A stretch of 64,000 nucleotides of DNA from Escherichia phage EscoHU1: sequence record NC_133119.1. One strand, written 5' to 3'. Below the pieces are notes generated by a model, which saw only the letters and a list, made by a program, of their open reading frames with translations, was not told the origin of the DNA and made no database searches. Position 1 is the stretch's first letter. Each line of letters begins with the position of its first letter. This document shows positions 4,952 to 38,042 of this stretch, piece after piece. The position numbers were made by a program, and so were the translations under genes.

Positions 4952-4980
4952 ATTATATTAGAAATTTAGCTTCATGGCAA
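4952..4980 (-). promoter_or_regulatory. T5-type promoter positioned to transcribe the downstream tRNA cluster
   Basis: Reverse complement TTGCCA-17-TATAAT; predicted start about 8 nt upstream of the tRNA-Ser 5' end. Confidence 0.5.
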
Positions 4981-5431
4981 GAAAATTTTTCAAGTTTTCT
5001 GTATTCATTTCATCTAAATCCATGAGGGAAGTAAACCCATTTAGTTTTTTAGCAAACTTCTCACCAGCAGAATCATTATCGCCTACGGCTACTACTTTAA
5101 AAGGTTGTAATTTTAGCTGCTTTAGCAATGCTTTGCTAGGGGAAGATCCTAGCATTGCTAGTGCGGGATATCCCGCGTTGTGTAGTGCCACAGCTTTAAA
5201 TACAGATTCTGCAACTAATACTAGGTCTTCATTACCTGTAAGAGTTTCTAAACCCCATAGACATTGAGTAGAAGAATGCGTAAAATATTTAGCTTCAGAA
5301 GGACATTTTCCATGACCTTTAGCTGCACTAGGGTTATATGTTTGATATCCACGTAACATGCCAGAGAAATCATACAGTGGAACTGTTAACCATCCATGTG
5401 GAGAGCCAACAGTGATACTTACCACTATCAA
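4958..5431 (-). CDS. Toprim-like domain protein; start unresolved (possible frameshift with upstream 34-codon ORF)
   Basis: 157 aa ORF with VLVAES...VVAVGDNDSAGEKFAKKL (Toprim-like E and DxD motifs); first codon in frame is TTG with no RBS; an RBS-preceded ATG ORF at 5369-5473 overlaps in another frame. Confidence 0.45.
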   Translation of the reverse strand: MIVVSITVGSPHGWLTVPLYDFSGMLRGYQTYNPSAAKGHGKCPSEAKYFTHSSTQCLWGLETLTGNEDLVLVAESVFKAVALHNAGYPALAMLGSSPSKALLKQLKLQPFKVVAVGDNDSAGEKFAKKLNGFTSLMDLDEMNTENLKNFLAMKLNF

Positions 5432-5505
5432 AGCCCCTAGATAAAAGATGTTGTTTTAACTCGTCAACAGTCATATATGACTCCTATCTATAATTTATAG
5501 AATAT

Positions 5506-5534
5506 ATTATATAGAAAATTTCGGCATTAAGCAA
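5506..5534 (-). promoter_or_regulatory. T5-type early promoter
   Basis: Reverse complement TTGCTT-17-TATAAT. Confidence 0.5.
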
Positions 5535-5542
5535 GTGAAATT

Positions 5543-5839
5543 TTACTGAACACTGCACTGATACACTTGTTTGATACGTGTCACTGACTTCTTAGTTGGA
5601 TTGATAGAAGAACCTTGCCACCAACGTGATTCTGAGCTGAGAACAGCACCAGGAACAGCTTGTTCTTTTGGCAGAACAATATCAAAACATTGCTCACCCA
5701 TATTATCTTTAATGTGTGACCAAATATCCAAAGTAAATCGTTCTAACTTATTACAAACCTGAACTTGACAAAGTTCCTGTTGCGGAGCAGCAAATACAGA
5801 AGTAGATACTAGAGTCAATGCAAGTACAATGCGTTTCAT
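5543..5839 (-). CDS. secreted/periplasmic Cys-containing protein, hypothetical
   Basis: 98 aa ORF with N-terminal signal peptide MKRIVLALTLVSTSVFAAP and several cysteines. Confidence 0.5.
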   Translation of the reverse strand: MKRIVLALTLVSTSVFAAPQQELCQVQVCNKLERFTLDIWSHIKDNMGEQCFDIVLPKEQAVPGAVLSSESRWWQGSSINPTKKSVTRIKQVYQCSVQ

Positions 5840-5869
5840 GTTTGATTCCTCTCTCGAATTTATAAATAT

Positions 5870-5898
5870 ATTATACAGAAATTTTCTATATTAAGCAA
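5870..5898 (-). promoter_or_regulatory. T5-type early promoter
   Basis: Reverse complement TTGCTT-17-TATAAT followed by AAGGAG-type RBS; GC hairpin terminator (5905-5935) just upstream on the transcript. Confidence 0.5.
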
Positions 5899-5945
5899 GT
5901 GAAAATTTCTGTATAATAGCCCTCGCTTAGAGGGCTATAACTACT

Positions 5946-6638
5946 TTATTTGTTAACGCGTACAAAGTATCCTTTATAGGCTCCAAGAATGGAGTTACCT
6001 AAGAATACTAGCCACATTGCTAGGATTGCATAAGATGCACCTGTAGATTGAGCAGTTACAAGCCAAATGTATACAGTACCAATGTTAATAGCAATCCAGA
6101 TCAGCCATTGTTCAGCATATTGCTTGACCATAAGCCACATAGCAATCACACTACCAACCGCAGTAAATGCATCGAGCATCGGGAATGGATCAGCTGTAGT
6201 AGCAAGGAAGCTACCGTAACCTAAAGTAGCTACTGCTAGAACCCCTAGAGTCAGCAAAGCTTGGGCTTTAGTCAGAATCTTAGTTGGAACATCTGGCAGA
6301 TTACTTGGCTTATTTTTATGCCATAAGTACATTCCGTAGAACTGCATAGGAACGTAGTACAATAGGTTTAATGCTGCGTTACCATAAAGATCTGCATTTA
6401 AAGCTGTAATACCATAGGTAAGAACACCAACTAAGCCCCAAATATAGTTGGAAACGCGTCCTTTTGCAACCAAAATAACACAAACTACGTTGGTTATCGC
6501 AGTAGCCCAATCTAGAGGTGTACCATTATAGTTAGCTAAACTAATGAAGGCAACCGCTATGAACAGCCACAGATATTCCAGAGGTTTCCAGTTTTTAAAG
6601 TCATTTACGAGATAGTTAGTCATATTAAAACTCTCCAA
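5946..6638 (-). CDS. pnuC: nicotinamide riboside transporter PnuC-like membrane protein
   Basis: About 230 aa, multi-pass hydrophobic protein with W/Y-rich helices resembling PnuC; overlaps and follows the NadR-like gene. Confidence 0.65.
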   Translation of the reverse strand: MESFNMTNYLVNDFKNWKPLEYLWLFIAVAFISLANYNGTPLDWATAITNVVCVILVAKGRVSNYIWGLVGVLTYGITALNADLYGNAALNLLYYVPMQFYGMYLWHKNKPSNLPDVPTKILTKAQALLTLGVLAVATLGYGSFLATTADPFPMLDAFTAVGSVIAMWLMVKQYAEQWLIWIAINIGTVYIWLVTAQSTGASYAILAMWLVFLGNSILGAYKGYFVRVNK

Positions 6639-7680
6639 CGTTAAAGTGATGAATCAGCCAGTCTACTGCGTTTACTGCTTCGTCCATACGAACTTTGTAG
6701 TCCGGGGAGTCGATGTAAACAGTACGCCCTTCAGGGAACTGATTTGGAAATTCTTTCTTCATCTGCTCGAACAGTTCAGAAGTAATTGAACGATCGGAGT
6801 TAATACGTAAACCATCATCTACCCACTTGACAGTAGGCGCTAGAACAATTACTAAATCGTAATGTTCTTCTTTTGCAATTGCTGTAACCACAGGGTTCTT
6901 ACGATGTTCATAAAGTCTGTGGTAGAACTCAGTAATAAAAGCATTTGTATCCACAAACATGATCTTATTTGCAGTACGTTCTGCTTCAAATTCTAGCTCT
7001 TTGTGTCTGAACGCAATTTTACTATAATCTTCGCTGGTAAGCAGATTTTCGTTACCAACTAGATCAACTTCACAATACGTTCGGCCATATTCTTCTACCC
7101 ACGAAGTGTTGTATAGCTTCGCAAGGTATTTTGTTAAAGTAGTCTTTCCCGAGCTTTCAGTCCCAATGATTACAACCTTACGCACGTAATCTTTACGAAC
7201 TACGCTAGGAAGAAACTCCCAATACTTCATAAGATCATTACGAATCATTGTAGCTGAGATTGGAACACGAGTCCGATCAGAATCTACAATATAATGACCA
7301 AACTTCGGCAGATATTTCTTATATTCTGCATCATAGTCTAGTTCGCTAGAGAAAATGGTGATCTCAGGCAAATGTCCATAATTTTCATTAAGGATTCTAG
7401 CATATTCCGGCCAACCATTCGGATATTCAGGAATATCATCTTCAATAATGTACTCTACCGAAACGTGCTCAATATCCGCGTAAGTTTGTTCTAACCAACG
7501 AAGTCGATTCTTTAACTGTAATACTTCCTGATCACGTGTGTTCTGCTTATCCAGCCAACGATTATCATGACTAACTACAACAATAACTCGTTCACACATA
7601 GTTGCTGCTGTGTTTATTAGGTTAATATGACCACGCGTTAATGGTGCGAACTTACCAATTACTAGACCAGTCTTAATCAT
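6625..7680 (-). CDS. nadR: NadR-like bifunctional NMN adenylyltransferase / ribosylnicotinamide kinase
   Basis: N-terminal GKFAPLTRGH (nucleotidyltransferase HxGH-type motif) and central P-loop GTESSGKTT; start taken at MIKTGLVIGKF with RBS. Confidence 0.7.
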   Translation of the reverse strand: MIKTGLVIGKFAPLTRGHINLINTAATMCERVIVVVSHDNRWLDKQNTRDQEVLQLKNRLRWLEQTYADIEHVSVEYIIEDDIPEYPNGWPEYARILNENYGHLPEITIFSSELDYDAEYKKYLPKFGHYIVDSDRTRVPISATMIRNDLMKYWEFLPSVVRKDYVRKVVIIGTESSGKTTLTKYLAKLYNTSWVEEYGRTYCEVDLVGNENLLTSEDYSKIAFRHKELEFEAERTANKIMFVDTNAFITEFYHRLYEHRKNPVVTAIAKEEHYDLVIVLAPTVKWVDDGLRINSDRSITSELFEQMKKEFPNQFPEGRTVYIDSPDYKVRMDEAVNAVDWLIHHFNVGEF

Positions 7681-7710
7681 ATTTGATTCCTCTCTCAAAT
7701 TTATAAATAT

Positions 7711-7739
7711 ATTATACAGAGAATTTAGCATTCAAGCAA
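7711..7739 (-). promoter_or_regulatory. T5-type early promoter upstream of the NadR-like gene
   Basis: Reverse complement TTGCTT-17-TATAAT with conserved leader ...CATAAATTTGAGAGAGG. Confidence 0.5.
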
Positions 7740-7855
7740 TCGAATTTTTTAACTTTTTAGAGGAAAATCGCAGGGCACTTAAGGGTAGCAGATGAGTGGT
7801 GAGGACCAGAAATTGTTACCCCAATAAAAATCCGGGGGCAATTTTTAAAGACCCC

Positions 7856-7884
7856 TTGACATTTTCGCTGGGATAGGATAAAGT
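7856..7884 (+). promoter_or_regulatory. sigma70-like promoter (TTGACA-17-TAAAGT) for the plus-strand islet
   Basis: TTGACATTTTCGCTG motif, nearly identical to the promoter at 37111. Confidence 0.4.
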
Positions 7885-7945
7885 ATATGTTATGGATGAG
7901 TGATCAAAGAGACACACATTTTCTATATACTAGGAGGTGTCAAAA

Positions 7946-8974
7946 ATGACAGAAGAAGTAGCTAAGAAACCTGAATCTCTAAGTGAAGTAGCAGCAGAAC
8001 TGCATCGTCACGAAGAATCAGACAAGAAAAAGTGGGAAAAGCTTAAAGCTCAAGAGCGAGCTGACGAGCATCATTATCATCATCACCATCATGAACACTA
8101 TGAGGAAGATGATGAAGACGACGAAGAAGAAGATGAACATGAACATCATGGTTATCACAAATATGGAGAAAGAAAAATGCAAGAACCAGTAAACGTATTC
8201 ACTAACGGCTTCCCTGGCCTGATGGGTGGTTACCCAGCTAACGCAGGTGCTTTCGGTGGAGAAGGTATGGGTCTATTCGGAGCTATCCTAATCGGTGCTC
8301 TATTAACAGGCGGATTCGGTGGATTTGGTGGATTTGGCGGACGTGGAGCAGGTGCTGTGGCTGAATTAACTGGTGTAGAAACTGTTCTGAGTAACCAAAA
8401 TACGTCAAGTATCCTATCTGCAATCAATACTGCTCGTACTGAAGCTAACCAGGGAACTGGTGCTGTTCTAAGCGCAGTAAATGGTGTAGGTGCTGCAGGT
8501 GCTGCTAGCACTCAGCAGATTCTGACTTCTCTGTACGGTACTGGTGCTAACCTGTCCAATCAGATCTGTCAGGAAACTCGTAGCGTTATTCAGGGTCAGT
8601 TTGACCTGTCTCGCCAGATCGATCAGTCCTTCGCGGCTAACCAGATCGCTCGTGCTCAAGACAAGTTTGATGCTGCTCAGATCGCTTTCCAGCAGACTAT
8701 TCAGACTAACAACCAGTTCGCTGCTGTAGCTGCACAGGCGTGCGCTAACCAGAACGCTCTGGAACGTCAGATCGCTGAATGTTGCTGTGAACTTCAGACT
8801 GCAATCGCTGGTGTAACTACTGCGCGTATTCAGGATGAATTAGATGAATGCCGTCTGCGTGAAGCAATCGCTGCAGGTAATGGTGCTAATGGTCAGGTAA
8901 TCAACCAAATCGCTGTAAGTCTTGGTGCTATCACTCAGACTCTAGCTGGTCTGCAGGCTAAACTGCCGGCTTAA
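7946..8974 (+). CDS. low-complexity protein: His/acidic N-terminus, glycine-zipper hydrophobic segment, Ala/Gln-rich C-terminus with Cys cluster
   Basis: ATG at 7946 with AGGAGG RBS (ORF track starts at GTG 7937); HHYHHHHHEHYEEDDEDDEEEDEHEHH, GLFGAILIGALLTGGFGGFGGFGG, C-terminal AECCCE; host-like codon usage. Confidence 0.55.
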   Translation: MTEEVAKKPESLSEVAAELHRHEESDKKKWEKLKAQERADEHHYHHHHHEHYEEDDEDDEEEDEHEHHGYHKYGERKMQEPVNVFTNGFPGLMGGYPANAGAFGGEGMGLFGAILIGALLTGGFGGFGGFGGRGAGAVAELTGVETVLSNQNTSSILSAINTARTEANQGTGAVLSAVNGVGAAGAASTQQILTSLYGTGANLSNQICQETRSVIQGQFDLSRQIDQSFAANQIARAQDKFDAAQIAFQQTIQTNNQFAAVAAQACANQNALERQIAECCCELQTAIAGVTTARIQDELDECRLREAIAAGNGANGQVINQIAVSLGAITQTLAGLQAKLPA

Positions 8975-8996: not shown

Positions 8997-9431
8997 ATGA
9001 GTAAATATGGTTTTGTGAACAACGGATTTAATCAACAAATGGGCTCCCAGCAGCCCGTTCCGGGTCTAGATAACCCTTACTTACAACAGTTGCAACAGCG
9101 TTTGGCAGAAGCACAAAATATGCAACAGCAGTTCCAACAACCTGGAACTGCTAACCCTATGCAGATGATGCAACAGCAAATGGTAGGGCAGCCGCAAATG
9201 CCTCAACAAATGCAGCCTCAGATGCAGCAAATGCAACAAATGCCTCAACAGCAGCAAGTTCAACAACTCCAACATCCGCAGGTATCTGCGGAAGGACAGG
9301 CTGTTCTAGCCCTTTTCGAAGACTTCGCTAAAACAGAGGATGGGAAGCAACTTGTATCGCTTATGGGTAAGTTTAACAGCTTCTGTCAGAGTCAGGTTGC
9401 AAAAGCTCAGAATGGGGGTAATAACTCCTAA
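8997..9431 (+). CDS. Gln/Met-rich low-complexity protein
   Basis: 144 aa, GGAGG RBS, long Q/M/P-rich tract (QQQMVGQPQMPQQMQPQMQQMQQMPQQQQ). Confidence 0.5.
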   Translation: MSKYGFVNNGFNQQMGSQQPVPGLDNPYLQQLQQRLAEAQNMQQQFQQPGTANPMQMMQQQMVGQPQMPQQMQPQMQQMQQMPQQQQVQQLQHPQVSAEGQAVLALFEDFAKTEDGKQLVSLMGKFNSFCQSQVAKAQNGGNNS

Positions 9432-9440
9432 GGAGAAATT

Positions 9441-9635
9441 ATGTGTTGTAGAAAACCTGTGTCATGCTGTCCTATGCCTGTAGCACGTTGTTGCTCTCCA
9501 GCAATGTTTACACAAATACCGGTGTTCAATCCCTTTGCCTTTAAGCCTACTCTTATCCTGCCCCCTAGAGTAGATTTTCAGTCAAGATTGGTCTCCCGTA
9601 TGGGTGGTTGCTGTACACCGAGAGTATGGTTCTAA
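9441..9635 (+). CDS. small Cys-rich protein
   Basis: 64 aa ORF with GGAGA RBS, CC pairs at both ends (MCCRKPVSCCP...GGCCTP). Confidence 0.4.
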   Translation: MCCRKPVSCCPMPVARCCSPAMFTQIPVFNPFAFKPTLILPPRVDFQSRLVSRMGGCCTPRVWF

Positions 9636-9682: not shown

Positions 9683-10213
9683 TTATAAATTTAAGTAATC
9701 TAGAGAAGGTATCACACCATCAAATTCTTCTAGGATAGCAAACTCTCCAGCAAATTCTTTCCTCATTTCGTTAGCTTTTGCTATCGCACTTCCAAGATCT
9801 TCGTAACCAAAAGATCCTCCTGATCTTTTAATACCTTCCTTATCTCTTATTAATACTCTCCATTTTTGCCTGTTCTTCTCCCAGCATACATTAGCATACC
9901 CAGACTTAGACTTTAATTTCTTATTTCTTTGATTTTGAGAATCTGTAGATTCTCTTAGATTGTCCCATGCATTATTATTTCTAATCCTATCTTTATGATC
10001 GACCATGCTAGGTAGGTATCCTTTTACATAAAGGAATGCTAGAACATGGGCTAAGTACATTTTTCCAGAGATCTGAATTCTGATATATCCATCAGATGTT
10101 AGGCTTCCCGCAATGCTGCCGGCCTTCTTGTTTCCTCTACTAACCTTATATGTAAACAATCCAGTTTCTTGATCATAGTCAAAAAGCTCTTTCAATTTTT
10201 CTTGAGTTAACAT
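9683..10213 (-). CDS. HNH homing endonuclease with AP2-type DNA-binding domain
   Basis: 176 aa; N-terminal HNH_3-like region (YIRIQISGKMYLAHVLAF...VDHKDRIRNNNAWDNLRE) and C-terminal AP2-like region (GYANVCWEKNRQKWRVLIRDKEG). Confidence 0.7.
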   Translation of the reverse strand: MLTQEKLKELFDYDQETGLFTYKVSRGNKKAGSIAGSLTSDGYIRIQISGKMYLAHVLAFLYVKGYLPSMVDHKDRIRNNNAWDNLRESTDSQNQRNKKLKSKSGYANVCWEKNRQKWRVLIRDKEGIKRSGGSFGYEDLGSAIAKANEMRKEFAGEFAILEEFDGVIPSLDYLNL

Positions 10214-12882: not shown

Positions 12883-12911
12883 ATTATACAGAAATTTAAG
12901 TCTTTAAGCAA
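12883..12911 (-). promoter_or_regulatory. T5-type early promoter
   Basis: Reverse complement TTGCTT-17-TATAAT. Confidence 0.5.
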
Positions 12912-27288: not shown

Positions 27289-27451
27289 TTTAGAAAATAT
27301 GCTTATGGAGCAGTGGAATGCTGGGTATAATGCTGGAGTAGCTACCTGTATTGCTGGTTTGGATATGCTTATTAAGCAAGAGAAGGTTCGCCCAGAAGAA
27401 GCAATTCTGCTCCAAAATATCATCGAAGGATTCAAGCAAGGAATCGTATAA
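27257..27451 (+). CDS. hypothetical protein
   Basis: Internal ATG at 27257 with GGAGGA RBS; the longer track ORF from 27173 would overlap the previous gene. Confidence 0.4.
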   Translation: MDFLNQNLKSNLENMLMEQWNAGYNAGVATCIAGLDMLIKQEKVRPEEAILLQNIIEGFKQGIV

Positions 27452-28302
27452 TGCGTAGACTAATCGTTGTTAGTGGTGCAGGTTTGAGTGTAGATAGTGG
27501 TGTTCGTGCTTTCCGTACTGATACTGCTAGTGGGAAATCCTTGTGGGATGAGTACGATCTAGAGGAAGTATGTAGCTTGCCTAACTTTGAAGCTGGCTTC
27601 CGTCGCTTCTGTGGTGAAGATGACCCTAACTACTTCAGTGCTCGTTTCCCTGGCATTGATGAAGATGGTAACGATCTGTATCTCAAGACTCATGAGTTCT
27701 ACAACATGCGTCGTCAGGAATTACAGACTGTTGAGCCTAACATTGCCCATCTGCGAATTGCAGAATGGTTCCAGCGTTATGGTGCGGATAGCGTGAAGAA
27801 CTTCACTACTAACGTTGATGACCTTCTGGAACGTGCTGGTATCCCTCGTGATGAAATCATTCACGCTCACGGGTACTTGAAAGAGGTGATCTATCGTCAG
27901 GGTCGCAACCAAATCATCGAAGATGTTGGGTATACTGCGATTGCCCCTGAGGATTACGAATGGGTAAAACCAAACGTAACATTCTTTGGTGAGACGGCTC
28001 CGTGGTATATGGGTCAGATTAACCTGTTTGATACACTTACTAGCAATGATATGGTTATTGTAGTAGGTTGTAGCAACCAAGTAATCGACTTCAACTGGGA
28101 GCTATTTCCTGCTGTATGTCGTGGAACTAAGATGATGGTTGTTAACCCACAAGTTCGTTATGACGAACAGCTTGAGTATGAGAAACGTGGTGTTACTGTA
28201 TGGCGTGCTGGAGCTGCCGAAGTTTTTGGTAACAAACAATTCATTGGCCAAGTTGAAGCTTTTATGGAAGGAACTATTTATGCACCAGAAAAGCATAGGT
28301 GA
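27451..28302 (+). CDS. Sir2-family (sirtuin-like) NAD-dependent protein
   Basis: GAGLSVDSGVRAFRT (sirtuin NAD-binding motif), catalytic-type HG (IIHAHGY), FFGE block; no Zn-ribbon cysteines. Confidence 0.55.
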   Translation: MRRLIVVSGAGLSVDSGVRAFRTDTASGKSLWDEYDLEEVCSLPNFEAGFRRFCGEDDPNYFSARFPGIDEDGNDLYLKTHEFYNMRRQELQTVEPNIAHLRIAEWFQRYGADSVKNFTTNVDDLLERAGIPRDEIIHAHGYLKEVIYRQGRNQIIEDVGYTAIAPEDYEWVKPNVTFFGETAPWYMGQINLFDTLTSNDMVIVVGCSNQVIDFNWELFPAVCRGTKMMVVNPQVRYDEQLEYEKRGVTVWRAGAAEVFGNKQFIGQVEAFMEGTIYAPEKHR

Positions 28303-28442: not shown

Positions 28443-28628
28443 ATGGTGAAGAAGATTTTTAAGGGTATCTGGAAAGGTCTAGTATGGTTTGTCAACCTAA
28501 TTGGTGTGATTACCATTTATTCTCTGTTCCTATCTGTTATATGGGGTAAAGGTGAACTGAAGGTTCCAGTTCCTTTTACTGATGAAGTTAAAGTCTGGAC
28601 GTGGGATGCTACTGGTGGAAATAAGTAA
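28443..28628 (+). CDS. small membrane protein
   Basis: 61 aa ORF with one hydrophobic helix (WFVNLIGVITIYSLFLSVIW), GGAG RBS. Confidence 0.4.
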   Translation: MVKKIFKGIWKGLVWFVNLIGVITIYSLFLSVIWGKGELKVPVPFTDEVKVWTWDATGGNK

Positions 28629-29121
28629 TACTCCTGTGATTTTCCTGGATATTGATGGGGTGCTCAATTCGAGCATCTCTCACCATCATGCCCCAGATAA
28701 TGAAAAGCTGTTCTTTGGCAGTGATTGGGTTTATAAACCATTACTCCAGGCTTTTCAGAACTTCCTTAAACCTTCTCCAATAATGATTGTTGGGGTATCT
28801 TCATGGTTTTCTGTACGAAACGAGATGGAGAACGTTCAGATTATGACCGGGCTCGGTTTGATCGATCGTTTCCTTGGTACAACAGATTTTACTGGAGGTG
28901 GTTTATCTCGAGGTAATTCTGTCTTACGTTTCGTAGAAAAACATAAGCTCAAGCATTGGTGCGTCCTAGATGATGCTGGTGCTATGATGTACCAATTTCC
29001 TACTGTTATTGTAAATGGCAGGACTGGAATAAACCTTCAAGATTTAAATGCTATCAGCTATATGCTGGAATTTAGTCCAGATCTTGAAATGTGTAAGGCT
29101 CTTCAGAAACTTAAGGTATAA
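28606..29121 (+). CDS. HAD-superfamily hydrolase-like protein
   Basis: FLDIDGVLN (HAD motif I DxDG) and VLDDAG; start at internal ATG 28606. Confidence 0.45.
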   Translation: MLLVEISNTPVIFLDIDGVLNSSISHHHAPDNEKLFFGSDWVYKPLLQAFQNFLKPSPIMIVGVSSWFSVRNEMENVQIMTGLGLIDRFLGTTDFTGGGLSRGNSVLRFVEKHKLKHWCVLDDAGAMMYQFPTVIVNGRTGINLQDLNAISYMLEFSPDLEMCKALQKLKV

Positions 29122-33588: not shown

Positions 33589-33617
33589 TTGCTTTCAGGA
33601 AAAATTTTCTGTATAAT
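33589..33617 (+). promoter_or_regulatory. T5-type early promoter
   Basis: TTGCTT-17-TATAAT then ...ATTCATAAATTTGAGAGAGGAG and ATG 33649. Confidence 0.55.
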
Positions 33618-35877: not shown

Positions 35878-36096
35878 TTGATGAGAGGATCAATTATGGC
35901 AATGACAATAACACTTCCAAAGATTCAAGCAAAACTTAATTTGCTCTCCATAGCAAGAATCAATTACCAGGATAGTATCGGCACTCCAAACCAGAAAGCG
36001 TACAAAGATGCGTGGTTGAAAGAAGCTGCTGATTTAGCTGGTATGGCTGCGCAGTATAGTAAAGAACTCAAAATGGAAATCGCAGATGATGAATAA
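35878..36096 (+). CDS. hypothetical protein
   Basis: 72 aa ORF. Confidence 0.4.
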   Translation: MMRGSIMAMTITLPKIQAKLNLLSIARINYQDSIGTPNQKAYKDAWLKEAADLAGMAAQYSKELKMEIADDE

Positions 36097-37060
36097 TGTA
36101 AAAGACTTTATTAAACGTTGTCAAGAAGCGTACTACCAGGGAATGAGTCTTATTTCCGATGAAGAATATGATCGTCTGATTAAAAGATTCCCACTAGAGG
36201 AAGAAATCGGACCGAAAGGTGATATCCCTCATTTGTATCGTATGTATTCTTTGCAGAAAGTCTATTACGATCGTGGTGATAAAGCTCCATTCAACCCACT
36301 TGGTCAGGTTGAAACTGATAAGTTAGATGGTTGTGCGATTTCTCTATTATATATTAATGGTGAGTTTGTTCAAGCGTTAACTCGTGGTAACGGTATTCTA
36401 GGGAATGATGTAACGCATAATGTTAAAATGCTGAACATCCCCAAAACTATTTCCCAAAAAGTACCAACTCAAATCACTGGTGAAGTTCTCATTACTAAAG
36501 AAGTAGAGAACAAACGTAACTATGCTTCTGGTGCTATTAACCTGAAAGATAGTGATGATTTCATGCAACGTATTGGTGAAGGTGGTTTAATCTTCGTTGC
36601 ATATGGTATCCAGTGTTCAGCGGAAACAGTCGGTATTACAGAAGCCTATTTAAAAGATATGCTTTGGCTAGAGAATGAGAACTTCTTGACAGTTATTAAT
36701 GTTCGTTCCTTCTTTAAATGGATTCCGACAGATGGTAAAGTTGTTCGCATTAACGACAACAATAAATTCTTCCGTGAAGGTTGGACTAATAAATTTCCTC
36801 GTGGTGCATTTGCTATTAAAGAGGATGAAGAAGGCGAAATTACCACACTTGTTAAAGTTGAATGGCAAGTAGGGGCTTCTGGTAAAGTAACTCCAGTTGG
36901 TTATTTCGAACCGGTGATTATTGATGATGCCACAATCGTTAAAGCAACTCTTAATAACGTTGATTATATTAACGCTCTCGATTTAGAGATCGGTTGCCAG
37001 ATTCGAGTGATTCGTGCTGGTGGTGTAATCCCTTGTATAGTAGAGCGAGTATACGACTAA
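36086..37060 (+). CDS. NAD-dependent DNA ligase, N-terminal adenylation/OB portion
   Basis: Adenylation motif TDKLDGCAIS (KxDG) and motif-III-like block. Confidence 0.7.
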   Translation: MMNNVKDFIKRCQEAYYQGMSLISDEEYDRLIKRFPLEEEIGPKGDIPHLYRMYSLQKVYYDRGDKAPFNPLGQVETDKLDGCAISLLYINGEFVQALTRGNGILGNDVTHNVKMLNIPKTISQKVPTQITGEVLITKEVENKRNYASGAINLKDSDDFMQRIGEGGLIFVAYGIQCSAETVGITEAYLKDMLWLENENFLTVINVRSFFKWIPTDGKVVRINDNNKFFREGWTNKFPRGAFAIKEDEEGEITTLVKVEWQVGASGKVTPVGYFEPVIIDDATIVKATLNNVDYINALDLEIGCQIRVIRAGGVIPCIVERVYD

Positions 37061-37203: not shown

Positions 37204-37232
37204 TTGCTAAATGCTTAAATACTTGCTATAAT
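37204..37232 (+). promoter_or_regulatory. T5-type early promoter
   Basis: TTGCTA-17-TATAAT then ...TTTATATAAATTGATAAGGAAG and ATG 37263. Confidence 0.5.
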
Positions 37233-37262
37233 ATTTATATAAATTGATAAGGAAGAAATTTG

Positions 37263-38042
37263 ATGAAAATCGAAATTCCAACACAATGTCCCTCTTGTGG
37301 TTCTAAGCTAGATCTTGTCAACGGGCAATTATTCTGTAGGAATAAGTCCAACTGTCCAGCGCAATCAAGTAAGTTAATCGAGAACTTCTGCACAAAAATG
37401 AAGTTAAAGGGCTTTGGCCCGAAAACTATTGAGAAGCTGGAACTGACTAAGATCTCAGAACTGTTTTACCTGACCGAAGAAGATTTGGTCGGAGCTGTGG
37501 GTAGCAAGGTTGCCGCTAAGTTGATTAGCGAGTTAAATACTAAGGTTCGCGGAGACATTGACTTTGGTTCGGTTCTCGGTTCTTTAGGAATTCCTCTTAT
37601 TGGAGAGGTTGCAGCAAAGAAACTGTCCCAAAATTGCACTAGCTTCCACGATGTGAAGGCTGACGGCAAGGCTGGAGAAAATTACAAAACCTGGCTAAAT
37701 TCCCCACAAGGCAAGGATGTTATTGAATTACCATGGAAATTCTCAACTGGTATTCGAGGTACTAAAGCTGATATCATCATTACGGATGATTTAGTTGCCC
37801 AGCCAAATGGAATCACGATCTGTATTACCGGATCTTTGCAAGATTTTGCAAATCGAACGGATGCAACAAACTATTTAGAAAGTCTAGGATATACGGTTAA
37901 GAAATCCGTTACCAAAGACGTCAAATACCTAATCTGTGAGGATGAATCAAAACGTTCTTCCTCATCTTATAAGAAAGCCGAAACGAATGGGATAGAAATC
38001 CTGTCGATTAAAGAACTATTGGAGAAAAATAATAATGTCTAA
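37263..38042 (+). CDS. NAD-dependent DNA ligase, C-terminal zinc-finger/HhH/BRCT portion
   Basis: C4 zinc finger CPSCGSKLD...CRNKSNCP, helix-hairpin-helix-like GFGPKTIEKL, C-terminal BRCT-like region. Confidence 0.65.
   Translation: MKIEIPTQCPSCGSKLDLVNGQLFCRNKSNCPAQSSKLIENFCTKMKLKGFGPKTIEKLELTKISELFYLTEEDLVGAVGSKVAAKLISELNTKVRGDIDFGSVLGSLGIPLIGEVAAKKLSQNCTSFHDVKADGKAGENYKTWLNSPQGKDVIELPWKFSTGIRGTKADIIITDDLVAQPNGITICITGSLQDFANRTDATNYLESLGYTVKKSVTKDVKYLICEDESKRSSSSYKKAETNGIEILSIKELLEKNNNV

What the first reader, a model, noticed from the sequence alone, without database searches (positions are those of the whole stretch)
5946..7739. Phage-encoded NAD+ salvage pair: NadR-like enzyme plus PnuC-like transporter
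The 6625-7680 product carries an HxGH-type nucleotidyltransferase motif (GKFAPLTRGH) and a P-loop kinase domain (GTESSGKTT), the NadR architecture; the overlapping downstream gene is a multi-pass membrane protein of PnuC size and character. Together they could import nicotinamide riboside and convert it to NAD+. In a genome that also encodes an NAD-dependent ligase and a Sir2-like protein, this may supply NAD+ for replication or offset NAD+-depleting host defences.
Basis: partly seen in the sequence, partly recalled or inferred. Interest (0 to 1): 0.7.

Follow-up and report, generated by a model that had tools for sequence, protein, structure and literature searches.

The report
Known phage NAD+ salvage operon (NARP3)

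Summary
On the minus strand, a 351-aa NadR-like protein (6625-7680) has an NMN adenylyltransferase domain and a ribosylnicotinamide kinase domain but no DNA-binding domain. One base downstream lies a 225-aa PnuC-family membrane transporter (5946-6623). Curated profiles support both assignments.

The pair is 349/351 and 220/225 residues identical to Bas30_86 and Bas30_87 of Escherichia phage TrudiRoth. Yan et al. (Sci Adv, 12 Aug 2026, PMC13464706) named that pair NARP3. They showed that it binds nicotinamide riboside (NR), converts NR to NMN and then NAD+, restores NAD+ depleted by Sir2-HerA and DSR1, and rescues phage plating. Crystal structures are 9X6H and 9X6F. All 25 residues named there are conserved here at the same numbering. 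Osterman et al. (2024) had already predicted this operon.

- The pair is a self-contained early operon: a T5-type promoter, two tightly packed genes and a hairpin.
- It is bounded by a direct repeat of the promoter and leader.
- Two sister phages (STWB21, HMD-P2) lack exactly this 1841-bp cassette, and Tequintavirus relatives lack it at the same site.

The function in the native phage has never been tested. Verdict: real, correctly interpreted, already known; low interest.

The parts
7711..7739 (-). Sigma-70 promoter of the T5 early type: TTGCTT (7739-7734), 17-nt spacer, TATAAT (7716-7711)
   Evidence: Read from the sequence. TTGCTT-N17-TATAAT with at most 1 mismatch occurs 25 times in the window against 0.94 expected. 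It aligns almost base for base with the annotated promoter P15a of Salmonella phage 5, AJ604531. No transcript mapping was done here.
7681..7710 (-). Leader with ribosome-binding site GAGAGAGGA (7696-7688), 7 nt before the ATG at 7680
   Evidence: Sequence. An RBS is annotated at the equivalent place in phage Sw2.
6625..7680 (-). NadR-like bifunctional enzyme, 351 aa, with no HTH domain. The NMN adenylyltransferase domain covers aa 1-166 (nt 7183-7680). The ribosylnicotinamide kinase domain covers aa 167-351 (nt 6628-7182).
   Evidence: It is 349/351 identical to Bas30_86 and 100% identical to the SpoonbillGilly protein. The PDB 9X6F chain matches at E 5.5e-241. Domain limits are taken from PMC13464706.
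7627..7656 (-). (H/T)xGH nucleotidyltransferase motif GKFAPLTRGH (aa 9-18); it includes K10, F11 and H18 of the NAD+/NMN site
   Evidence: Residue roles are from PMC13464706.
7240..7260 (-). Second nucleotidyltransferase motif ISATMIR (aa 141-147; ISxTxxR type)
   Evidence: It aligns with vSATkIR of H. influenzae NadR, 1LW7.
7138..7164 (-). Walker A P-loop GTESSGKTT of the kinase domain (aa 173-181)
   Evidence: The Pfam AAA_28 match starts at aa 185 of the 368-aa ORF, which is aa 168 of the 351-aa protein.
6631..6636 (-). Ribosome-binding site GGAGAG for the transporter gene. It lies inside the last codons of the NadR-like gene, 7 nt before ATG 6623.
   Evidence: Sequence. An RBS is annotated at the same place in Sw2.
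5946..6623 (-). PnuC-family nicotinamide riboside transporter, 225 aa, with about 7 hydrophobic segments
   Evidence: It is 220/225 identical to Bas30_87. N45, Q94 and N180 are conserved.
5916..5938 (-). Hairpin directly after the stop codon: 9-bp stem ATAGCCCTC/GAGGGCTAT with loop TAAGC. It is a likely terminator or RNA-stabilising hairpin with a weak U tail.
   Evidence: RNA fold of -17.1 kcal/mol, z = -5.9, with 0 of 200 shuffles folding as well. It is annotated as a terminator in Sw2 and Stitch. The consensus terminator scan did not list it because the T tail is poor.
5840..5898 (-). Second copy of the same promoter and leader (TTGCTT 5898-5893, TATAAT 5875-5870), driving the next gene (5543-5839, a signal-peptide protein). 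Its leader part is the right-hand boundary repeat of the cassette.
   Evidence: A 37-nt repeat at 7682-7718 and 5841-5877 differs at one position, covered by the Y in the search pattern; none is expected by chance. Alignments.
5840..7680 (-). The 1841-bp cassette (NadR-like gene, PnuC-like gene, hairpin, second promoter and leader) that is precisely absent from phages STWB21 and HMD-P2
   Evidence: In STWB21 the upstream promoter and leader run straight into the ATG of the signal-peptide gene. Three records from two phages show this empty site.

Best explanation
This is a copy of NARP3, a phage NAD+ reconstitution operon.

Proposed mechanism:
1. Host RNA polymerase transcribes the two genes early in infection from a T5-type sigma-70 promoter (inferred).
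2. The PnuC-like protein inserts into the inner membrane and lets external nicotinamide riboside (NR) into the cell.
3. The kinase domain of the HTH-less NadR-like enzyme phosphorylates NR to NMN using ATP.
4. Its adenylyltransferase domain joins NMN to AMP from ATP to give NAD+.

This rebuilds the NAD+ pool when host defences that destroy NAD+ (Sir2-HerA, DSR1) fire, so the phage can finish replication.

What is shown: the biochemistry and the counter-defence effect, for near-identical proteins expressed from plasmids. What is inferred: the promoter, early timing, bicistronic transcript and hairpin termination, which come from sequence and from annotated homologous promoters. What is untested: the role in the native phage.
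For: Family assignment:
- NadR NF005988 scores 260.3 bits (cut-off 201), aligned to model positions 54-407, that is, without the HTH domain.
- PnuC TIGR01528 scores 120 bits (cut-off 42.45).
- Pfam gives AAA_28 at 1.2e-31, CTP_transf_like at 3.3e-7 and NMN_transporter at 1.9e-43.
- PHROG 3462 and PHROG 1880 match.

Identity to the characterised system:
- PDB 9X6F/9X6H (Bas30_86) matches at E 5.5e-241.
- The proteins are 349/351 and 220/225 identical to TrudiRoth bas30_0086 and bas30_0087.
- All 22 Bas30_86 residues and all 3 Bas30_87 residues named in the paper are conserved at the same numbering.

Experiments in PMC13464706:
- Bas30_87 binds NR (Kd about 0.66 uM).
- HPLC shows NR converted to NMN and then NAD+.
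- NAD+/NADH pools are restored, and T7 and lambda plating rises 10^3- to 10^4-fold against Sir2-HerA. DSR1 is also countered.
- Rescue depends on NR, with an EC50 of 3.6-5.6 uM.
- Point mutants in either protein abolish the effect.

Operon anatomy: promoter, RBSs, 1-nt gene spacing and hairpin.

Conservation of the gene pair: about 200 Demerecviridae records hold the whole operon. NadR-like and PnuC-like genes are also adjacent and in the same order in Erwinia phage Hallingskeid, and at matching positions in two ICP1 isolates.
Against: - No experiment has been done on this phage or on any native NARP3 phage. The authors state this limitation.
- The paper shows NR binding and NR-dependent rescue, not a direct uptake measurement.
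- The TIGR01526 equivalog-domain model scores 271.9 bits, below its strict cut-off of 341.15.
- The hairpin has a poor U tail, so termination there is uncertain.
- Two Epseptimavirus isolates lack the cassette and were still isolated as plaque-forming phages, so it is dispensable on some hosts.
- The system depends on external NR, whose availability in natural settings is not known from these data.
Confidence: 0.9

Rival explanations
1. The operon is mainly a metabolic booster. It tops up NAD+ for the phage's own NAD+-consuming enzymes (the split NAD-dependent DNA ligase and the Sir2-family protein) and for general replication, whether or not the host carries an NAD+-depleting defence. This can coexist with the counter-defence role.
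For: The same window encodes a Pfam SIR2 protein (27451-28302) and a two-part NAD-dependent ligase (36086-37060 and 37260-38042). The operon has an early-type promoter like those of the replication genes. The native role has never been tested.
Against: Tequintavirus relatives (T5_ev212, phage 5) have no cassette at the syntenic site; whether they carry the ligase was not checked here, and that T5 encodes an NAD-dependent ligase rests on my own knowledge. Close (at least 80% identical) NadR-like matches are limited to about 205 of the 50,697 phage records. STWB21 and HMD-P2 lost exactly the cassette and are viable. In the published assays, plating of T7 and lambda was rescued on hosts carrying Sir2-HerA or DSR1, and expressing the operon imposed little cost on the host.
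Confidence: 0.15
2. The NadR-like protein acts as a transcriptional regulator of NAD genes, as several GenBank records label it ('NadR transcriptional regulator', 'DNA-dependent negative transcription regulator', 'trifunctional ... NadR').
For: Only the database labels.
Against: The protein starts 8 residues before the GKF...GH motif. It aligns to positions 54-407 of the 411-position trifunctional NadR model, so the N-terminal HTH domain is absent. The crystal structure of the 99.4% identical protein has only the NMNAT and RNK domains.
Confidence: 0.01
3. The membrane protein imports a different substrate, since the Pnu family also includes thiamine, riboflavin and deoxynucleoside transporters (my own knowledge). 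On this reading its pairing with the NadR-like gene would be incidental.
For: The Pnu family is functionally mixed. The enterobacterial PnuC subfamily model NF011926 scores only 68 bits against a cut-off of 335.
Against: The TIGR01528 NR-transporter equivalog passes its cut-off. The 97.8% identical Bas30_87 binds NR, and its N45A, Q94A and N180A mutants lose both binding and rescue. Rescue is dose-dependent on NR. The same three residues are present here. The NadR-PnuC gene pairing recurs in distant phages.
Confidence: 0.03

Closest known systems
NARP3 (Bas30_86/Bas30_87 of Escherichia phage TrudiRoth; Yan et al., Sci Adv 2026, PMC13464706; PDB 9X6H and 9X6F)
   Same: Same two genes in the same order and strand, with the same 1-nt spacing. 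The proteins are 99.4% and 97.8% identical, and all functionally tested residues are conserved. The promoter and leader repeat and the hairpin stem are the same. Same phage genus, Epseptimavirus.
   Different: Two substitutions in the enzyme (V72I and R257S when going from the window to Bas30) and five in the transporter. The hairpin loop is inverted (TAAGC here, GCTTA in Bas30). The neighbouring genes differ slightly: a primase-related ORF lies beyond the signal-peptide gene here, where Bas30 has tRNA genes directly.
Bacterial NadR plus PnuC nicotinamide riboside salvage (E. coli/Salmonella NadR, PDB 8X7F; H. influenzae NadR, 1LW7; L. lactis NadR, 6GYE; Neisseria mucosa PnuC, 4QTN)
   Same: Same two-domain enzyme (NMNAT plus RNK) and same transporter family, and the same chemistry of NR to NMN to NAD+. 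PDB sequence matches: E 5e-55 (1LW7), 1.5e-51 (8X7F), 8e-44 (6GYE) and 2e-32 (4QTN).
   Different: It has no HTH repressor domain, unlike enterobacterial NadR. The two genes are fused into one compact operon under a phage early promoter, whereas E. coli pnuC and nadR lie at separate loci. It is carried by a lytic phage.
NARP2 (phage Nampt plus bifunctional NMNAT/Nudix, e.g. Vibrio phage KVP40 NadV/NatV; Osterman et al. 2024)
   Same: A phage-encoded route to NAD+ that passes through NMN and an NMN adenylyltransferase step. It counters NAD+-depleting defences.
   Different: NARP2 starts from nicotinamide and PRPP inside the cell and has no transporter. NARP3 starts from imported NR and uses a kinase. 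[quoted passage not shown]
NARP1 (Adps plus Namat; Osterman et al. 2024)
   Same: A two-gene phage operon that rebuilds NAD+ during infection.
   Different: Unrelated enzymes and chemistry (ADP-ribose is pyrophosphorylated, then joined to nicotinamide). It has no import step.

Membership tests
NadR family, bifunctional NMN adenylyltransferase / ribosylnicotinamide kinase | N-terminal nucleotidyltransferase domain with the (H/T)xGH and ISxTxxR motifs | tested here: met
   GKFAPLTRGH at aa 9-18 and ISATMIR at aa 141-147. Pfam CTP_transf_like gives 3.3e-7, 31 bits against a cut-off of 21.
NadR family, bifunctional NMN adenylyltransferase / ribosylnicotinamide kinase | C-terminal P-loop kinase (RNK) domain with a Walker A motif | tested here: met
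   GTESSGKT at aa 173-180. Pfam AAA_28 gives 1.2e-31, 110.6 bits against a cut-off of 27.
NadR family, bifunctional NMN adenylyltransferase / ribosylnicotinamide kinase | Whole-protein score above the curated NCBIfam cut-off | tested here: met
   NF005988 scores 260.3 bits against a cut-off of 201. However, the stricter equivalog-domain model TIGR01526 scores 271.9 bits against a cut-off of 341.15, so that threshold is not reached.
NadR family, bifunctional NMN adenylyltransferase / ribosylnicotinamide kinase | N-terminal helix-turn-helix repressor domain (trifunctional enterobacterial NadR only) | tested here: not met
   The alignment starts at model position 54 of 411, and the protein has only 8 residues before the first motif. 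It therefore belongs with the HTH-less, enzyme-only NadR proteins, not with the trifunctional regulator.
NadR family, bifunctional NMN adenylyltransferase / ribosylnicotinamide kinase | Catalyses NR to NMN to NAD+ | not testable with these tools
   Shown by HPLC for the 99.4% identical Bas30_86 (PMC13464706).
PnuC nicotinamide riboside transporter family | Profile match above the curated cut-off | tested here: met
   Pfam PF04973 scores 148.9 bits against a cut-off of 27.3. TIGR01528 scores 120 bits against a cut-off of 42.45. The enterobacterial subfamily model NF011926 is not reached (68 bits against 335).
PnuC nicotinamide riboside transporter family | Multi-pass membrane protein of about 220-240 aa | tested here: met
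   225 aa with about seven hydrophobic segments on Kyte-Doolittle analysis. It aligns over residues 14-220 with the solved PnuC 4QTN, E 2.2e-32.
PnuC nicotinamide riboside transporter family | NR-binding residues of the characterised phage homologue (N45, Q94, N180) | tested here: met
   All three are present at the same positions.
PnuC nicotinamide riboside transporter family | Transports NR | not testable with these tools
   NR binding and NR-dependent rescue are shown for the 97.8% identical Bas30_87. No direct uptake assay was reported in the text I read.
NARP3 phage NAD+ reconstitution pathway | A NadR-like gene directly followed by a PnuC-like gene on the same strand in a phage genome | tested here: met
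   6625-7680 followed by 5946-6623, with a 1-nt spacer. The window is an Epseptimavirus-like T5 relative, 95-97% identical in DNA to Salmonella phages Stitch and Sw2.
NARP3 phage NAD+ reconstitution pathway | Close homology to the founding pair Bas30_86/87, with the mutationally tested residues conserved | tested here: met
   349/351 and 220/225 identical. 25 of 25 named residues are conserved.
NARP3 phage NAD+ reconstitution pathway | Restores NAD+ and phage growth against NAD+-depleting defence | not testable with these tools
   Shown only by plasmid expression with T7, lambda and Klebsiella phages. It has never been tested in a native NARP3 phage.

The most novel reading that the evidence does not exclude
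The most novel reading the evidence leaves open concerns the native T5-like phage. There the cassette may be an early-expressed module bounded by promoter repeats, which recombination between its two promoter and leader copies can delete cleanly. Its main selected role, never tested in any native NARP3 phage, may be to feed the phage's own NAD+ consumers (the split NAD-dependent ligase and the Sir2-like protein). Alternatively it may matter only in NR-rich habitats such as the gut, rather than acting as a general counter-defence. The natural cassette-less relatives STWB21 and HMD-P2 would make this directly testable.
Probability: 0.2. Interest if true: 0.35.

Novelty: already known. Interest (0 to 1): 0.15.

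Why it matters
NAD+ depletion is a common bacterial way of aborting phage infection. Phage pathways that rebuild NAD+ help decide which phages succeed on which hosts, and they can be engineered into therapeutic phages. That significance has already been established and published for this exact gene pair (NARP3), so this window adds another member and not a discovery.

What this analysis adds is modest:
- The transcriptional anatomy of the operon.
- The cassette is flanked by a repeated promoter and leader.
- Natural clean deletions (STWB21, HMD-P2) exist and could serve as comparators for the missing native-phage experiment.
- NadR-like and PnuC-like genes occur in many more phage records (790 and 446) than the 124 operons counted in the paper.

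Tried and rejected
1. ATG 7731 as the start of a 368-aa protein. Rejected: it lies between the -35 and -10 hexamers, has no RBS, and all annotations and the crystal construct start at MIKTGL.
2. TTG 6638 as the transporter start, which would make the genes overlap by 14 nt. Rejected: it has no RBS, and ATG 6623 reproduces the published numbering.
3. An NAD+ riboswitch or other known RNA element in or around the operon. An Rfam scan of 5300-8100 at E up to 1 found nothing.
4. A regulatory (repressor) role for the NadR-like protein. Rejected because the HTH domain is absent.
5. The generic terminator scan did not list the hairpin after the transporter gene, and its two hits lie inside coding sequence. 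The hairpin was confirmed by folding instead.
6. I asked whether the cassette is an insertion with a recognisable mobile-element signature. No integrase or transposase gene was seen next to it in the ORF list. The only boundary feature is the repeated promoter and leader, so homologous recombination between the repeats is the simplest account of the empty sites. The direction of the event (gain or loss) was not resolved by a phylogeny; the rarity of the empty site (2 phages against about 200) favours loss.
7. I did not run the large protein-database searches or a structure prediction, because a crystal structure of a 99.4% identical protein already exists.
Full report
**What is there**

The window is part of a T5-like phage genome of the family Demerecviridae, close to the genus Epseptimavirus. 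The first 25 kb match Salmonella phages Stitch, Seabear and Sw2 at about 95.7% identity over more than 90% of their length. The 2.1 kb around the finding match the same phages at about 97%.

Two ORFs lie at the coordinates of the finding, both on the minus strand. One runs 6625-7731, with an internal ATG at 7680. The other runs 5946-6638, with an internal ATG at 6623.

**Checking the observation**

The product of 6625-7680 is 351 aa long.
- It carries GKFAPLTRGH at residues 9-18.
- It carries ISATMIR at residues 141-147.
- It carries the Walker A loop GTESSGKT(T) at residues 173-181.

The first motif is the TxGH form of the (H/T)xGH nucleotidyltransferase signature. H. influenzae NadR has HTGH at the aligned position.

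The downstream product has about seven hydrophobic segments.

Start codons:
- ATG 7731 lies between the -35 and -10 hexamers of the promoter and has no ribosome-binding site.
- ATG 7680 follows GAGAGAGGA at a 7-nt spacing.
- TTG 6638 has no ribosome-binding site.
- ATG 6623 follows GGAGAG at a 7-nt spacing and lies one base after the TAA of the upstream gene.

With these starts the genes are adjacent and do not overlap. The residue numbering also coincides with that of the published proteins. The annotations of Sw2 and TrudiRoth use the same starts.

**What the proteins are**

| Search | NadR-like protein | PnuC-like protein |
|---|---|---|
| Pfam | AAA_28, 1.2e-31; CTP_transf_like, 3.3e-7 | NMN_transporter, 1.9e-43 |
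| NCBIfam | NF005988, 260.3 bits (cut-off 201), model positions 54-407 of 411; TIGR01526, 271.9 bits (cut-off 341.15, not reached) | TIGR01528, 120 bits (cut-off 42.45) |
| PHROGs | 3462, nicotinamide-nucleotide adenylyltransferase, 1.3e-153 | 1880, PnuC-like, 3.3e-74 |
| Solved structures | 9X6F/9X6H, E 5.5e-241; then 1LW7, 8X7F, 6GYE | N. mucosa PnuC 4QTN, 2.2e-32 |

Because the NF005988 alignment starts at model position 54, the N-terminal helix-turn-helix domain of the trifunctional NadR is missing. The best structural match, 9X6F/9X6H, is a 'nicotinamide-nucleotide adenylyltransferase'. The next matches are NadR of H. influenzae (1LW7), E. coli (8X7F) and L. lactis (6GYE).

**It is already described**

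[quoted passage not shown] The paper deals with Bas30_86 (NadR-like) and Bas30_87 (PnuC-like) of Escherichia phage TrudiRoth. Structures 9X6H and 9X6F are the apo form and the NAD+-bound form of Bas30_86.

I fetched the TrudiRoth locus. Genes bas30_0086 and bas30_0087 have the same order, strand and 1-nt spacing as here. The proteins are 349/351 and 220/225 identical to those of the window.

The paper reports the following:
- Bas30_87 is a trimer that binds NR with a Kd of about 0.66 uM. N45A, Q94A or N180A abolish binding.
- Bas30_86 converts NR to NMN and NMN to NAD+ with ATP, as shown by HPLC.
- Co-expressing both genes, but not either alone, restores the NAD+ and NADH depleted by E. coli or A. 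baumannii Sir2-HerA.
- Co-expression raises T7 and lambda plating 10^3- to 10^4-fold and also counters DSR1.
- Rescue depends on external NR, with an EC50 of 3.6-5.6 uM.

All residues that the paper names are present here at the same numbers:
- NMNAT site: K10, F11, H18, S37, E80, P84, Y86, G89, W90, Y93, F110, S112, L114, D115, V139, I141.
- RNK site: K163, D164, R167, K168, E230, D275.
- Transporter: N45, Q94, N180.

The idea is older than the 2026 paper. Osterman et al. (bioRxiv 10.1101/2024.02.11.579819) wrote that phage NadR genes usually share an operon with PnuC and may form another NAD+ reconstitution pathway. They listed the BASEL phages that carry it.

**Anatomy of the locus (added here)**

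Read on the minus strand, the unit has these parts:
- -35 hexamer TTGCTT (7739-7734), a 17-nt spacer, and -10 hexamer TATAAT (7716-7711).
- The leader ATATTTATAAATTTGAGAGAGGAATCAAAT.
- The NadR-like gene, then one base, then the PnuC-like gene.
- A 9-bp-stem hairpin at 5938-5916, folding at -17.1 kcal/mol with z = -5.9.
- A second copy of the same promoter and leader (TTGCTT 5898-5893, TATAAT 5875-5870). This copy drives the next gene, which encodes a 98-aa signal-peptide protein (5543-5839).

The 37-nt stretch from the -10 region to the end of the leader occurs at 7682-7718 and at 5841-5877, differing at one position (T or C, written as Y in the search pattern), with none expected by chance.

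TTGCTT-N17-TATAAT, allowing one mismatch, occurs 25 times in the window against 0.94 expected. Most copies lie upstream of genes and on the coding strand.

The NadR promoter aligns almost base for base with the annotated 'promoter P15a' of Salmonella phage 5 (AJ604531). In phage 5 that promoter drives a primase-related ORF.

These promoters look like the classical strong early promoters of T5. That comparison rests on my memory of the T5 literature and was not tested.

No Rfam family, and therefore no known NAD+ riboswitch, matches 5300-8100.

**Presence and absence of the cassette**

- About 200 phage records hold the whole 2.1-kb region.
- In Salmonella phage STWB21 (two records), and by its matching coverage in HMD-P2, the upstream promoter and leader run directly into the ATG of the signal-peptide gene. 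Exactly 7680-5840 (1841 bp) is missing, and the junction lies inside the repeated leader.
- In Tequintavirus relatives (T5_ev212, phage 5), the syntenic site holds only the primase-related ORF.

The operon is thus an accessory cassette at a variable spot. That spot lies at the edge of the tRNA gene region, which has 13 tRNA genes immediately downstream and one further along. The rare empty sites are most simply explained by recombination between the two repeat copies. That is an inference; no tree was built.

**Distribution**

- tblastn with the enzyme finds 790 phage records. Of these, 205 are at least 80% identical, and 355 are Vibrio phage records.
- tblastn with the transporter finds 446 records.
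- The two genes are adjacent and in the same order in Erwinia phage Hallingskeid. They lie at matching positions in two ICP1 isolates.

This is broader than the 124 operons counted in the paper.

**Rivals**

1. Feeding the phage's own NAD+ users. The window does encode a Sir2-family protein and a split NAD-dependent ligase, so this is possible and not exclusive of the counter-defence role. However, the Tequintavirus relatives examined lack the cassette at this site, and two sister phages lost it cleanly.
2. A repressor role. This is excluded by the missing HTH domain.
3. A different transport substrate. This is unlikely given the experiments on the 97.8% identical protein and the conserved binding residues.

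The one real gap, acknowledged by the authors, is that NARP3 has never been examined in a native phage.

**Verdict**

The feature is real and was correctly interpreted. It is a near-identical copy of a system that has been characterised biochemically, structurally and genetically, so it is already known and of low interest. The remaining value lies in the operon anatomy and in the natural deletion variants, which could serve the missing native-context experiment.

Noticed in passing
window 5840-5898 and 7681-7739 (minus strand); L003 (STWB21) 1780-2130: The NadR/PnuC cassette is bracketed by a direct repeat of a promoter and leader. Salmonella phages STWB21 and HMD-P2 lack exactly the 1841 bp between the repeats, so the upstream promoter is fused to the next gene's ATG.
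   Followed up: yes
window, 25 sites (e.g. 2572-2600, 5506-5534, 12883-12911, 33589-33617, 37204-37232): TTGCTT-N17-TATAAT promoter-like sites occur 25 times against 0.94 expected. They resemble T5 early promoters, and the one before the NadR-like gene matches the annotated promoter P15a of Salmonella phage 5 (AJ604531). Three tandem copies of the same promoter and leader type precede the NadR-like gene, the signal-peptide ORF and the primase-related ORF.
   Followed up: partly
window 4958-5474 (minus strand), indel near 5404/5405: The primase-related (Toprim) ORF carries a 2-nt deletion relative to T5_ev212 and phage 5 ORF trn 2.1. The first ~25 codons (from ATG 5474) are therefore in a different frame from the rest. 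This could be a pseudogene, a sequencing error or something else.
   Followed up: partly
window 9683-10213 (minus strand): A free-standing HNH_3 endonuclease ORF (Pfam 2e-13) is an insertion of about 530-570 bp relative to phage Sw2. It sits between two terminator-like hairpins, like a homing endonuclease.
   Followed up: partly
window 5916-5938 compared with L006 (TrudiRoth) about 2385-2410: The hairpin after the transporter gene has the same stem in both phages, but the 5-nt loop is inverted (TAAGC here, GCTTA in TrudiRoth), as if the loop had flipped.
   Followed up: no
window 27451-28302 and 28582-29121 (plus strand): The first ORF is a genuine Sir2-family protein (Pfam SIR2, 1.4e-21). The second is labelled 'Sir2 (NAD-dependent deacetylase)' in RefSeq phage Stitch, but here it matches Pfam HAD_SAK_2, so the label looks wrong. 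The role of a phage Sir2 alongside an NAD+-making operon is unexplained.
   Followed up: partly
window 36086-37060 and 37260-38042 (plus strand), promoter-like site 37204-37232: The NAD-dependent DNA ligase is split into two ORFs: adenylation and OB domains in one, HhH and BRCT domains in the other. A T5-type promoter-like site lies in the 200-nt gap between them.
   Followed up: no
window 7937-8974, 8997-9431, 9441-9635 (plus strand): Three genes of unknown function (the first two in PHROGs 8119 and 7894) are transcribed divergently from the NadR-like gene, and all are conserved in T5 relatives. One is a 345-aa protein with a His-rich and acidic N-terminal part and a Gly-rich middle. One is a Gln-rich 144-aa protein. 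One is a Cys-rich 64-aa ORF.
   Followed up: no
GenBank records listed: The same HTH-less gene is variously annotated as 'NadR transcriptional regulator', 'DNA-dependent negative transcription regulator', 'trifunctional NAD biosynthesis/regulator protein', 'ribosylnicotinamide kinase' or 'hypothetical protein'. The regulator labels are not supported.
   Followed up: yes
phage records (e.g. ICP1 MW794141 12571-13575; Hallingskeid PQ464590 56728-58555): NadR-like genes occur in 790 phage records and PnuC-like genes in 446. These include Vibrio cholerae phage ICP1, where they are annotated as hypothetical, as well as jumbo phages. This is far more than the 124 operons counted in the NARP3 paper.
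   Followed up: partly
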